A stretch of DNA of 64,000 nt, taken from assembly GCF_056712565.1 (NCBI RefSeq), contig NZ_CM160072.1; one strand, 5' to 3'. The position numbers were made by a program. Of the stretch, positions 30,001 through 33,000 are shown one piece after another (position 1 is the stretch's first letter; every line of letters begins with the position of its first letter).

Positions 30001-33000
30001 TCAAGCTTGCTTGTACGAACTTGGGGGTGCTTTGCAGGTTATTTCCACTACGATATTCCCCCATGGCAAGTGCATAACGCGTATATCCAGCACGTTGGAG
30101 AACCGGAACAGACGAATAAGGAACATATAATGTCTGAATACTGCCGTCTGCCTCTTTTATGGTTACTTGCAGATTACCACCATTGGCCGCAGAGTTGATA
30201 TCATCAATAGTAAAAGGGCCGGGTGGGACAGTAGTCTGATAAACATCGTATCCATTCTGTTTTACACTCACTTGTGCGGTGCCACGAGCAATACCATGAA
30301 TCACCGGAGCGAAACCATGTTGGCTATCGGGCAACATCGCTTCTGTTGAATTTATTTTAAGGCCACGAAAGTTCACACTGTCAAAAATATCGCCATCGGT
30401 ATAACTATCACCCACTGTTAACCGTGAGCGTAACGGAATAATGTCACGTTCAGCCGACGTATTGATATGCTGCCATTTATTGCTGTCAGATGAATTGCTA
30501 CTCCCACTGTTATAACTCCACGTTGAGTTATCGCGCAGTCGCCAACTACCAATGTTGATGCCACTCTGTAAATTCAAATATGCATAGTTGGATTTTCCTG
30601 CATTATGGTTACTACGGTTATTAATAGAATTACCATCAAAACTATAGTTTAGTAGCCCTGCATTTATTCCTTCTTCCCACAGATCAGGAGAAACATAGCC
30701 GCGAGCCATTCTGCCGACATATATTTGCGGAACGGAGAGTGACAGATGTTGCTGACCAACATCAAACTCAGATGATGCATCAGCCAAACGATCCTGAAGT
30801 GGTGTGCATGCGCTGTTGTCCGGCACATGTTTATCTGCCGAATGTTCCTTGTTGTCTAATAATGCTGATTTTTTTATGCCAAGACTGACAAGAAGGTCTG
30901 TACTCAGGCATGGGATGAGATCTGCGTTATTATCATCTGCAATAAAAGTAATATCCCGACTAGCCATAAATTCGTCGTTCAAATAAATGTCGACCCGATA
31001 TGTACCAGGTGGGGCCTCGCGTCCCTTAGTAAAGGCAGATAAATCGACAGATTCAGCAAGGTCATTGCTTAAAAACCGTGGATTAAAATAATACTCTGCG
31101 TCAACGGGAAAAACCGCAGTTGCTAAGCCAAGGGCAAAGGTAAGCCGTGCAAAGCGAGGCAGTATTAACACCTGATGCATACGATATGCCTTAAATGCGG
31201 CACGAAAGGCTGTCATTTTTAATCCCGATTGAGTTTATTATTAATTAGGTCACTGGCTTACTGCATGGTTGCCTTAATACGCGGAGTTAATGCACCGTAA
31301 TCATTGATTGTCTGAAAACTGATATCCCCGGTTACAGCATGCGGGATATCCACCGATACTTCACCTTTTGGCGGCACCATGGTGTTTGGGAGATTGCTAT
31401 TTCCTGCTTTCATATTTGTTACGGTAATGAAGTAGGGCGTTGGATTAATAAGAGTGAGTTTGCTACCGCTGCGACGAAACCGAAGCATTGCAGGCGCTTC
31501 TTCAGGTGCCATTGCCAGATGCGTGGGGCGATAAAACATTTTTATGCGGCTAATAATTGCCAGCTGTAATGTATTCTCATTCTTCTGGTCTTTTTCCATA
31601 GCAGGGATAGCTTTAACATTAACCCAGAACAGGCTTTCACGGTCGCCTGGTAACTGATGATTAGTGGCGTTGATTATCCGAAGCGTATTCTCTTTTTTAC
31701 CTTGCATGGAAAAAAGCGGTGGGGTAATGACAAACTGGGTATCTTTCTGGTCACCCGCATTTTCTATCCATGACTGAATGAGATAGACACTGGCAGGATC
31801 ATTATTCGTGACAGGCAATAAAACCTGTTTCTGGTTTGCCGGATAAATTACCCGCGTCGCACCAAGTGCGACAGCTGCGTTGGCAATGGTGCTATGGCAA
31901 GCAAAGAGCAATAAAAGTAACACTGTCGCCATAAAGGAAACAGAGTAGGGGGTACGCGTAGTTTGCATCTGATGCATTCTCCATGTGTTAAGAGGATAAG
32001 CGGGGAAACCGTTACATCAGACAATCGGTAAATATTGCTAATGCATTGGCGAGTCGCCGGTTTTCCAGACTTAATGCGTTTGTAATAAATGTTGGTTCTC
32101 TTTTGATAGGAAAACCTTGCTACCAAGTAAATATTTTAAATAACAGCAAGTTTAACTACTGTTGTTTATTGATCGTTTAGATATTATGTGATTTTTCATA
32201 CCGCTCCAAAATACAAACCATTTTTCATTAATAATGAGATGAACATTGGTGAATTTCTCGGGTGTGCGTAGCCATGCCACACACACCCTGTTTCAATTTC
32301 AGATGACACATAGTCACCTTAAGAGTGAATTATAGATATTGAACTTTGAAGGTCGCATCAGCGTTTGCAGTACCAGCTACTGACTGCCCGAGAGCAATAT
32401 AACGAGCCTGGAACGGCAGTATATTCGTGCCATCAATCAAGTCAGTTTTAGCGCTAAAAGTAGCACCATCAAGTACTAATACCTCCCCTGTACGGTCCAA
32501 AATTTGGATACCGACATTTTGGGCAGAGCCTGCCGCTGAACTCTGCAGCGCTAATGTATCGTCATTACTGGTGACAGTAGTACCCAGGAATGCAACAGCT
32601 GCATTACTGGAAACATTGGTATCACAATCATTCAGCTTGATATTGAAGCCAACGGCGGAGCTGAGGTCACCCGCTTTAGCCAGGCGAGAAGAACGAACCT
32701 GACCCAGCTCAACCGTTTGGTTCATTGATTCTGAATCAATCGCACAAGCGGCATTTACCACTTCACCTTTAAAATGAATTACACCGCCATTAACAGTGGT
32801 CGTTACTGATTCATCACCCTCGGCTGCGCTTACCGCAGCAGACGACATCGCCAACACAGAAACGACAATAATACCGACATGTTTGAGTTTCATAATTCTC
32901 CAAAATTTATATTTAAGTAGCTGAATAAAGAGAGTTAACAATTAAGTTATTCTGTTATTGCTTATAAAACAAGAATCATTCTTGATTGGATGTTGCCCTG

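What the first reader, a model, noticed from the sequence alone, without database searches (positions are those of the whole stretch)
31978..32329. Long spacer with a hairpin between the fimbrial major-subunit and chaperone genes
The major-subunit gene is followed by a 350-bp spacer, unusually long for a chaperone-usher operon. It includes a GC-rich hairpin gggtgtg...cacacacc at 32260-32287 without a U-tract, which may act as an attenuator or mRNA-stabilising element setting subunit stoichiometry.
Basis: seen in the sequence. Interest (0 to 1): 0.25.

Follow-up and report, generated by a model that had tools for sequence, protein, structure and literature searches.

The report
Conserved RNA hairpin after F9 pilin gene
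A long non-coding gap in the E. coli F9 (Fml/Yde) fimbrial operon holds one very stable RNA hairpin just after the main pilin gene; the hairpin is nearly invariant across the species and most likely protects or ends the pilin message so that more pilin than assembly machinery is made, which is a familiar design in pilus operons.

Summary
The window is E. coli phylogroup B2, and the finding lies in the F9/Fml/Yde chaperone-usher operon on the minus strand. The major-subunit gene (32330-32893) and the chaperone gene (31258-31968/31977) are separated by 352-361 non-coding bases. A perfect 13-bp hairpin with a 3-nt loop sits at 32260-32288, 42 nt after the stop codon, with no U-tract.

The hairpin is stronger on the operon's sense strand (-23.8 against -16 kcal/mol). 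It is single-copy. It is 100% identical in 91% of 3590 E. coli genomes, against 39% for the adjacent 38 nt. The only two stem variants I saw turn G·U pairs into A-U pairs. The rest of the spacer drifts at about the synonymous rate, except the last ~50 nt before the chaperone start.

The spacer occupies the place of fimI in the fim operon, but no FimI similarity remains. F9-like operons in other bacteria also lack fimI and carry long AT-rich spacers (287-451 bp).

The hairpin is the positional analogue of the fimA 3'UTR sRNA FimR2, but it is not a member of that family: it has no GGA motifs and gets no covariance-model hit.

Best reading: a 3' protective or partial-termination hairpin that sets pilin stoichiometry. 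This is a new member of a known kind, and I found no experimental test of it. Interest is low to moderate.

The parts
33144..33180 (-). Published F9 promoter elements: -35 TAGTCG (33180-33175), -10 CATAAT (33156-33151), and TSS G at 33144, 251 nt upstream of the start codon
   Evidence: Read. The sequence matches the CFT073 5'-RACE description in PMC3966885: CATAAT, TAGTCG, an 18-bp spacer, and a G 251 nt upstream of the ATG (32893 + 251 = 33144).
32330..32893 (-). F9 major fimbrial subunit gene (fmlA / c1936 homologue; annotated 'fimA' in RefSeq), 187 aa
   Evidence: 100% identical to annotated B2 genomes. Pfam Fimbrial, E = 7e-31. 70% identical to K-12 FimA.
31969..32329 (-). Non-coding spacer between the major-subunit and chaperone genes: 361 nt to the RefSeq start, 352 nt to the upstream in-frame ATG; 37% G+C
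   Evidence: Single copy; present in 3656 of 5426 E. coli genomes at 93-100% identity. No Rfam match. No FimI or pilin similarity.
32260..32288 (-). Conserved 13-bp, 3-nt-loop RNA hairpin in the 3' UTR of the major-subunit gene, 42 nt after the stop codon, with no U-tract
   Evidence: Fold -23.8 kcal/mol on the sense strand against -16 on the antisense strand. 100% identical in 3274 of 3590 genomes, against 1317 of 3406 for the neighbouring 38 nt. One segregating site in 29 across 10 haplotypes. Both stem variants turn G·U into A-U. 13 of 13 pairs are kept in all 11 sequences.
32170..32259 (-). AU-rich, fast-evolving part of the spacer just 3' of the hairpin; holds RN|WUU-type RNase E-like motifs (for example GAA|AUU, 4 nt after the stem)
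   Evidence: pi = 0.085 with 1-nt indels, which excludes coding. The motif list is a degenerate pattern match only.
31969..32075 (-). Better-conserved 3' end of the spacer: a predicted multi-helix structure, then the chaperone Shine-Dalgarno GGAG (31979-31982)
   Evidence: Fold -31 kcal/mol, z = -3.1. 0-1 segregating sites per 30 nt over the last ~50 nt. A few one-sided changes keep pairs; no compensatory changes. Function inferred: the translation-initiation region of the chaperone gene.
31258..31968 (-). F9 periplasmic chaperone gene (c1935 homologue), 236 aa
   Evidence: PapD_N and PapD_C domains. RefSeq annotation. 59% identical to FimC.
29234..31216 (-). N-terminal 660 codons of the F9 usher gene, cut off by an insertion sequence in this strain
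   Evidence: PapC_N plus Usher profile positions 1-417 of 549. Compared with the intact operon of ATCC 11775.

Best explanation
The hairpin is an RNA element of the F9 operon transcript. Transcription starts at the mapped F9 promoter (window 33144), runs through the major-subunit gene and then into a long untranslated AU-rich gap. The 13-bp hairpin, 42 nt after the stop codon, most likely forms the stable 3' end of a roughly 885-nt major-subunit message. That end could arise by inefficient termination or pausing at the hairpin. It could also arise by endonuclease cleavage in the unstructured AU-rich RNA just downstream, followed by 3'-to-5' exonuclease trimming that stalls at the stem. Either route would leave more major-subunit mRNA than chaperone, usher or tip-subunit mRNA, matching the need for hundreds of pilins per pilus.

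The rest of the gap is mostly unconstrained non-coding DNA lying where fimI sits in the fim operon. The exception is the last ~50-100 nt, which form the chaperone's translation-initiation region.

Shown here: the structure, its strand bias, its single-copy status, its conservation relative to its flanks, and pair-preserving variants. Inferred: that the RNA end forms there and that this changes stoichiometry.
For: The hairpin is exceptionally stable for its context. Its G·U pairs make it stronger on the operon's sense strand, -23.8 against -16 kcal/mol.

Across the species, 91% of 3590 genomes are identical over the hairpin, against 39% for the adjacent 38 nt. In 10 haplotypes pi is 0.007 in the hairpin, 0.043 and 0.085 in its flanks, and 0.034-0.045 at third codon positions. 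The two stem substitutions found (O145-type G22A, GF60 G11A) both convert G·U to A-U.

The hairpin lies directly after the gene whose product is needed in greatest amount. fim-type operons carry a conserved, covarying hairpin at the same position, and in E. coli that hairpin is the RNase E-processed FimR2 RNA.

The general mechanism, a 3' protective structure after the upstream cistron, is established for malEF, puf, cfaAB and papBA (PMC5927463).

The major-subunit and chaperone genes move together in an APEC pst mutant (-3.2 and -3.7 fold; PMC2648988). So the hairpin is not a full stop, and the chaperone is not on a wholly separate regulon.
Against: I found no transcript-end, decay or coverage data for this operon. 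F9 is silent or very low under standard conditions.

There is no U-tract, so efficient intrinsic termination is unlikely.

As a class, hairpins after major-subunit genes are no more stable than the best hairpins in random coding windows of the same loci (median -12.6 against -12.05, p = 0.25). Energy alone is therefore weak evidence.

Diversity within E. coli is low, so there are only two informative stem variants and no true compensatory double change. Conservation could also reflect a DNA-level constraint.
Confidence: 0.55

Rival explanations
1. The hairpin is the core of a stable 3'UTR-derived small RNA cut from the operon transcript, like FimR2 from fimA, and it acts in trans on other mRNAs or proteins. 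This can coexist with the cis stabiliser role.
For: It has the same position as FimR2 in the closest paralogous operon. RN|WUU-type motifs lie about 10 nt before and 4 nt after the stem in B2 strains. The sequence is very strongly conserved, not only the pairing. F9-like operons in Citrobacter sp. JGM124 and in an unidentified bacterium still carry FimR2-like hairpins with GGA loops at this position.
Against: There is no GGA in the loop or in an upstream single-stranded stretch, so the CsrA-sponge mechanism of FimR2 does not carry over. A covariance model built from 45 fimA-fimI spacers finds nothing in any F9 spacer at E <= 10. The downstream RNase E-like motif is not conserved in other lineages (GAGCAAUU). 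No such RNA is reported in the searched literature.
Confidence: 0.15
2. The inverted repeat works at the DNA level as a binding site for a dimeric regulator, for example the sigma-54 activator KguR, controlling transcription of the chaperone and usher genes.
For: The + strand sequence TGTGCGTAGCCATGCCACACACA is listed as one of 22 genome-wide matches to the KguR pattern in CFT073 (PMC8716947, Table 3). The arms form a near-perfect palindrome, and both natural variants make it more perfect at the DNA level too.
Against: The listing is a degenerate in-silico pattern hit. Binding was not tested, and the F9 genes were not among those changed in the kguR mutant. No GG-N10-GC sigma-54 promoter exists in the spacer on either strand. 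The repeat is invariant in lineages such as O157:H7, O145 and 55989; to my recollection kguSR is a UPEC-associated island, and I did not test that here. The two imperfect positions are G·U in the sense RNA, which fits an RNA constraint better.
Confidence: 0.07
3. The hairpin has no function. It is a chance palindrome in a decayed remnant (for example of fimI), and its conservation reflects low diversity or a local mutational cold spot.
For: The spacer as a whole evolves at about the synonymous rate. The operon is often broken by deletions and IS insertions, including in this window's strain, so selection on it is weak. About 0.6% of shuffles give a stem this long. There is no compensatory double change.
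Against: The contrast with the immediately adjacent sequence is large and species-wide: 91% identical against 39%. With the flank rate, the expected number of segregating sites in the hairpin is about 6.7 and I observed 1 (counts; binomial P of about 0.005, my arithmetic). Both stem changes preserve pairing. No FimI similarity is detectable.
Confidence: 0.15
4. The hairpin is an intrinsic terminator for an antisense (+ strand) transcript entering from the chaperone side. On that strand the stem is followed by UGUUUCAAUUUC.
For: On the + strand the 3' flank is moderately U-rich, and an A-rich run precedes the stem on the sense strand.
Against: On the + strand the stem has two A·C mismatches and reaches only -16 kcal/mol. 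The terminator scan does not call it. No promoter-like site lies on the + strand upstream of it within 31200-32260.
Confidence: 0.03

Closest known systems
FimR2, the RNase E-processed 3'UTR-derived sRNA in the fimA-fimI spacer of E. coli type 1 fimbriae (Raad et al. 2022, PMC9723502; annotated b4838 in K-12)
   Same: A stable hairpin immediately after the major-subunit stop codon of the closest paralogous operon (F9A is 70% identical to FimA, F9C 59% to FimC), inside the polycistronic transcript and without a U-tract.
   Different: FimR2-type elements carry two GGA motifs, CA(R)GGA(N)GC plus a GGGCC-AGGA-GGCCC hairpin. These are conserved with covariation in 45 operons from many genera. The F9 hairpin is longer (13 bp against 5-7), lies further from the stop codon (+42 against about +25), has an AUG loop without GGA, and is not found by the covariance model. 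The flank similarity is not significant.
Intercistronic 3' protective stem-loops that cause differential mRNA decay within operons (malE-malF, puf, cfaAB of CFA/I fimbriae, papBA of P pili), as summarised in PMC5927463
   Same: A stable stem-loop placed 3' of the cistron needed in excess, followed by unstructured AU-rich RNA, and conserved relative to neighbouring sequence.
   Different: For those operons the RNA ends and half-lives were measured. Here nothing has been measured. The malE-malF element is a repeated REP sequence, whereas this one is single-copy.
Rho-independent (intrinsic) terminators after pilin genes, for example the hairpin plus U-run after the major-subunit genes in Proteus mirabilis L048, L059, L070 and the F9-like L098
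   Same: A G+C-rich hairpin directly after the major-subunit gene.
   Different: The U-tract is absent in E. coli F9.
fim operon gene order fimA-fimI-fimC
   Same: The spacer occupies the position of fimI. The fimA stop to fimC start distance is about 640 nt in K-12 and in about 50 orthologous operons.
   Different: No coding capacity and no FimI similarity by tblastn or profile HMM. Indels between lineages rule out a conserved ORF.

Membership tests
F9 / Fml / Yde chaperone-usher fimbrial operon of E. coli | Gene order major subunit, chaperone, usher, two minor subunits, FimH-like adhesin, at the ydeP-hipA locus, with no fimI | tested here: met
   100% DNA identity to annotated B2 genomes. 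The flanking genes ydeO, safA and ydeP lie on one side and SDR and hipBA on the other. Pfam domains agree. In this strain the distal genes are deleted and the usher is split.
FimR2-type 3'UTR element | Located just after the stop codon of the major-subunit gene of a fim-like operon | tested here: met
   The hairpin starts 42 nt after the stop codon. FimR2 starts 10 nt after the fimA stop codon.
FimR2-type 3'UTR element | GGA motif in the hairpin loop plus a second single-stranded GGA upstream (the CsrA-binding arrangement) | tested here: not met
   The loop is AUG. The upstream sequence has AAGGUG(A/G)C but no GGA. The motifs are invariant or nearly invariant in 45 fim-type spacers.
FimR2-type 3'UTR element | Match to a sequence-and-structure profile of the family | tested here: not met
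   Covariance model R1 scores K-12 fimA-fimI at 24.2 bits. It gives no match at E <= 10 in the window or in 8 other E. coli F9 loci. Rfam has no such family, so only the home-made model could be used.
FimR2-type 3'UTR element | RNase E-dependent release of a small stable RNA | not testable with these tools
   Only degenerate RN|WUU motif matches could be listed.
Intrinsic (Rho-independent) terminator | G+C-rich stem-loop | tested here: met
   13 bp, 66% G+C, -22.4 kcal/mol.
Intrinsic (Rho-independent) terminator | Run of U directly 3' of the stem | tested here: not met
   The 3' flank is GAGAAAUUCACC, and the scan does not call it.
Intercistronic 3' protective stem-loop (differential operon mRNA decay) | Stable sense-strand structure 3' of the upstream cistron, conserved above background | tested here: met
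Intercistronic 3' protective stem-loop (differential operon mRNA decay) | RNA 3' ends at the structure, and a longer half-life or higher level of the upstream segment | not testable with these tools
   No transcript data were found. The only indirect hints are from microarray and RNA-seq reports.
REP/BIME-type repeated extragenic palindrome | Many copies per genome | tested here: not met
   Exactly one place per genome in 3590 genomes. The spacer has a median of 1 place per genome.
KguR (sigma-54 activator) binding site | TGTG(T/C)G-N5-15-C(G/A)C(G/A)CA inverted repeat | tested here: met
   The + strand reads TGTGCG-N9-CACACA. It is listed in Table 3 of PMC8716947. This is a pattern match only.
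KguR (sigma-54 activator) binding site | A sigma-54 promoter (GG-N10-GC) downstream, and KguR-dependent expression | tested here: not met
   No GG-N10-GC site in the spacer on either strand. The paper does not list the F9 genes among those that responded.
fimI pseudogene remnant | Residual protein or DNA similarity to FimI or fimI | tested here: not met
   tblastn and blastn give noise only. A FimI profile HMM against six-frame translations gives E >= 0.48 for E. coli, L095 and L098. A Yersinia spacer gives E = 0.003, which shows the test can detect a remnant.

The most novel reading that the evidence does not exclude
In E. coli the F9 operon has replaced the ancestral GGA-bearing, CsrA-binding FimR2-like element with a different, species-invariant 29-nt hairpin. 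F9-like operons of Citrobacter sp. JGM124 and of another bacterium still carry the ancestral element. The new hairpin would be released as a stable small RNA with its own trans-acting role or protein partner, for example a 3'-hairpin-binding protein such as ProQ, linking F9 expression at low temperature to other cell functions.
Probability: 0.1. Interest if true: 0.5.

Novelty: new member of a known kind. Interest (0 to 1): 0.25.

Why it matters
F9/Fml fimbriae matter for biofilm formation at low temperature, plant colonisation by EHEC, and chronic bladder infection. How the operon sets the ratio of pilin to assembly proteins has not been studied.

The hairpin gives a precise, easily mutated candidate for that control. 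It also gives a natural contrast with FimR2: the same position in a paralogous operon, but without the CsrA-binding motifs.

The wider point is modest, because a hairpin after the pilin gene is a textbook arrangement. This case adds an instance, not a principle.

Tried and rejected
1. fimI remnant. tblastn and blastn of FimI, FimA, FimF, FimG and F9A against the spacer, and a FimI profile HMM against six-frame translations, gave nothing for E. coli or for the two other F9-like spacers.

2. Known RNA family. Rfam gave no match at E <= 1 over 28000-36000. Rfam also has no FimR2 family.

3. FimR2 homology. The covariance model was negative. Local alignment of the first 30 nt after the stop codon to fim flanks was no better than shuffles (94 of 1000 and 631 of 1000).

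4. Repeat element. The sequence is single-copy.

5. Small ORFs. A 27-codon ORF with AAGGUGA before its AUG (start 32311) exists only in B2, because other lineages have AUA there. The 44- and 37-codon ORFs are broken by lineage-specific 1-nt indels.

6. Internal promoter or terminator. No consensus sigma-70 promoter or terminator lies inside the spacer on either strand, and there is no sigma-54 site.

7. Rho loading site. The C/G ratio is at most 1.5, and only near the 3' end, so it is not a clear C-rich, G-poor tract.

8. Sequence similarity between the E. coli, Citrobacter sp. and L098 spacers: none.

9. Class-level energy test. Hairpins after major-subunit genes are not more stable than the best hairpins in random windows of the usher genes of the same loci. 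I therefore dropped the argument that 'all pilin genes have unusually strong hairpins'.

10. Literature. I found no description of this spacer or hairpin apart from the KguR pattern table.

It therefore cannot show that F9 is absent from other Escherichia species.
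Full report
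**What is there**

The window is E. coli phylogroup B2. Bases 31200-33300 are 100% identical to ATCC 11775, UTI89, APEC O1 and other strains.

The finding lies in the F9 (also called Fml or Yde) chaperone-usher operon, which runs on the minus strand.
- The major-subunit gene is 32330-32893. It has Pfam Fimbrial and is 70% identical to FimA.
- The chaperone gene is 31258-31968. It has PapD_N and PapD_C and is 59% identical to FimC.
- The usher gene follows the chaperone.

The promoter elements and the transcription start mapped in CFT073 are all present in the window. They are -35 TAGTCG, -10 CATAAT and a G 251 nt upstream of the ATG (PMC3966885). The start falls at 33144.

**Checking the observation**

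The gap between the two genes is 352 nt to the first in-frame ATG (31977) and 361 nt to the RefSeq start (31968).

The hairpin is at 32260-32288. In the mRNA sense it reads GGGUGUGUGUGGC-AUG-GCUACGCACACCC: 13 pairs, two of them G·U, with a 3-nt loop, starting 42 nt after the stop codon.
- Energy: -22.4 kcal/mol alone and -23.8 in a 51-nt context, with z = -5.2.
- Chance: a stem this long appears in 0.6% of dinucleotide shuffles of the spacer. Only 1 of 60 random 110-nt windows from related loci had a hairpin as stable.
- U-tract: none, and the terminator scan does not call the site.

The gap is long for this kind of operon. In 22 related loci where the chaperone gene directly follows the major-subunit gene, the gap is 8-204 nt, with one exception of 508 nt.

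**Is the hairpin under constraint?**

The spacer is single-copy and occurs in 3656 of 5426 complete E. coli genomes at 93-100% identity.

I aligned ten haplotypes that span that range.

| Region | Nucleotide diversity (pi) |
|---|---|
| Whole spacer | 0.041 |
| Third codon positions of the flanking genes | 0.034-0.045 |
| 41 nt before the hairpin | 0.043 |
| Hairpin (1 segregating site in 29) | 0.007 |
| 75 nt after the hairpin (also has 1-nt indels) | 0.085 |

So most of the gap is about neutral, and the hairpin is a cold spot between two hot stretches. The last ~50 nt before the chaperone start are also conserved.

The species-wide searches agree. A 38-nt query centred on the hairpin is 100% identical in 3274 of 3590 genomes. 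The adjacent 38 nt are identical in only 1317 of 3406, and 1550 genomes fall at 80-90% identity.

I found two substitutions inside the stem, G22A in O145-type strains and G11A in strain GF60. Each turns a G·U pair into A-U. A fourth variant, with paired 2-nt deletions, comes from an assembly that also has other 1-nt deletions in its flanks. It looks like sequencing error.

The G·U pairs make the structure stronger on the operon's sense strand, -23.8 against -16 kcal/mol. That points to RNA and not DNA. There are no true compensatory double changes, because E. coli diversity is too low to supply them.

**What the gap is, and is not**

In the fim operon and in about 50 orthologous operons from Klebsiella, Raoultella, Citrobacter, Kluyvera, Enterobacter, Serratia, Erwinia, Pantoea and others, fimI lies between the major-subunit and chaperone genes. 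The fimA-fimI gap is 60-85 nt, and the fimA-fimC distance is about 640 nt. The F9 spacer therefore sits where fimI would be.

It keeps no detectable similarity to FimI or to other pilins, by tblastn, blastn or a FimI profile HMM. The same HMM does pick up a marginal remnant in a Yersinia spacer, so the test can work.

Chaperones 73-74% identical to the F9 chaperone, but only 59-64% identical to FimC, led to two F9-like operons: one in Citrobacter sp. JGM124 and one in an unidentified bacterium. Both have the same six-gene order without fimI. Both have long AT-rich gaps of 451 and 287 nt at 31-33% G+C. These gaps share no sequence with the E. coli spacer.

A long, AT-rich, sequence-unconstrained gap is therefore a trait of this operon lineage. 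It fits an old loss of fimI, although that origin cannot be shown.

The following were all negative: small ORFs, sigma-70 and sigma-54 promoters, terminators, repeats and Rfam families.

**Comparison with FimR2**

The K-12 annotation places the 35-nt sRNA FimR2 right after fimA. It is cut from the operon transcript by RNase E and binds CsrA through GGA motifs (PMC9723502).

The fimA-fimI spacers of 45 operons share CA(R)GGA(N)GC followed by a GGGCC-AGGA-GGCCC hairpin, with G-C to A-U covariation in the stem. The two F9-like operons from other bacteria also show this arrangement by eye: UAAGGAC...AGGGC-AAGGAUA-GCCCU and GCAGGACG...UGGGC-AAGGA-UGCCCA.

The E. coli F9 hairpin shares the position only.
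- It has no GGA.
- It is about twice as long.
- A covariance model built from the 45 spacers finds K-12 fim at 24.2 bits but nothing in nine E. coli F9 loci at E <= 10.
- The similarity of the first 30 nt after the stop codon is not significant.

So the F9 hairpin may work like FimR2's hairpin as an RNA end, but it is not a member of that family.

**Mechanism**

The best-supported reading is an RNA hairpin that forms the stable 3' end of the major-subunit message. The end could arise by weak termination or pausing. It could also arise by cleavage in the AU-rich RNA just downstream, followed by exonuclease trimming that stops at the stem. Either way the pilin message would outlast or outnumber the chaperone and usher segments.

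This mechanism is established for malEF, puf, cfaAB and papBA (PMC5927463). It fits the position, strand bias and conservation seen here.

The pilin and chaperone genes fall together in an APEC pst mutant, by -3.2 and -3.7 fold (PMC2648988). Read-through therefore occurs. In a CFT073 fur mutant only the pilin gene was singled out (PMC7157518). This would fit its message being the most abundant, but the evidence is weak.

I found no direct transcript data. F9 is almost silent at 37 C and even at 23 C in one study. I put this reading at about 0.55.

**Rivals**

- A trans-acting sRNA released from the same site (0.15). It is not exclusive of the best reading.
- A DNA-level protein site (0.07). 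The inverted repeat appears in a published table of in-silico KguR motif hits in CFT073 (PMC8716947). No binding or regulation was shown, there is no sigma-54 promoter in the spacer, and the repeat is invariant in lineages well outside UPEC.
- A functionless chance palindrome (0.15). The species-wide contrast with the adjacent sequence argues against it.
- A terminator for an antisense transcript (0.03).

**Verdict**

The hairpin is a new, uncharacterised instance of a well-known design. The long gap is explained by the absence of fimI in this operon lineage. Interest is low to moderate.

Noticed in passing
window 27906-29236, with 5-bp duplications at 27901-27905 and 29237-29241: A 1331-bp IS3-family insertion sequence is inserted in the F9 usher gene with a 5-bp target duplication. 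Its ORFs of 136 aa (HTH_Tnp_1) and 301 aa (rve) and its size fit IS2. The usher is split into an N-terminal part (29234-31216) and a C-terminal fragment.
   Followed up: partly
window ~27361-27363 (junction): Compared with ATCC 11775, this strain has a 3.5-kb deletion with 3-bp microhomology. It removes the 5' part of ydeP, all of ydeQ (the adhesin), ydeR and ydeS, and the end of the usher gene. The F9 operon of the window's strain therefore cannot make fimbriae, yet the hairpin is unchanged.
   Followed up: partly
L004-L079 (fimA-fimI spacers); K-12 L002:1162-1228: The FimR2-type element has two GGA motifs, one of them in the loop of a GGGCC/GGCCC hairpin with G-C to A-U covariation. It is conserved directly after fimA in about 45 operons from many genera of Enterobacterales and one Aeromonas, far beyond the Escherichia, Shigella and Salmonella range discussed in PMC9723502. 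Rfam 15 has no family for it.
   Followed up: partly
L095-L097 (Citrobacter sp. JGM124-type) 4550-5000; L098/L099 4127-4413: F9-like six-gene operons without fimI exist outside E. coli. They have long AT-rich gaps (451 and 287 nt) that start with a FimR2-like GGA hairpin. In L098 a U6 run follows the hairpin, so it looks like a true intrinsic terminator.
   Followed up: partly
L031 (Yersinia massiliensis) 3793-4030: The gap between the fimA-like and chaperone genes gives a marginal FimI profile hit (E about 0.003 among 42 translated frames). It may be a decayed fimI remnant.
   Followed up: no
L090 (E. coli STEC299) 1361-1500: A natural deletion removes the F9 promoter, the major-subunit gene and the first ~42 nt of the spacer, ending about 18 nt before the hairpin. 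It leaves the hairpin, the rest of the spacer, the chaperone gene and at least the start of the usher gene.
   Followed up: no
L001 (UTI89) 4202-6017: RefSeq annotates the UTI89 F9 usher as truncated (1518 of 2652 nt) and fused to a partial minor-subunit gene. Different B2 strains therefore carry different lesions in this operon.
   Followed up: no
window 32301-32319 (- strand): A second, weaker hairpin (GGUGACU-AUGUG-UCAUC) lies between the stop codon and the main hairpin. In B2 only, it overlaps an AAGGUGA-AUG start for a 27-codon ORF. Other lineages have AUA instead of AUG.
   Followed up: yes
window 26070-26129 (+ strand): The FimR2-type covariance model gives a weak match here (13.2 bits, E = 0.69) that includes AGCCAGGAAUGCC. 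It is probably chance.
   Followed up: no
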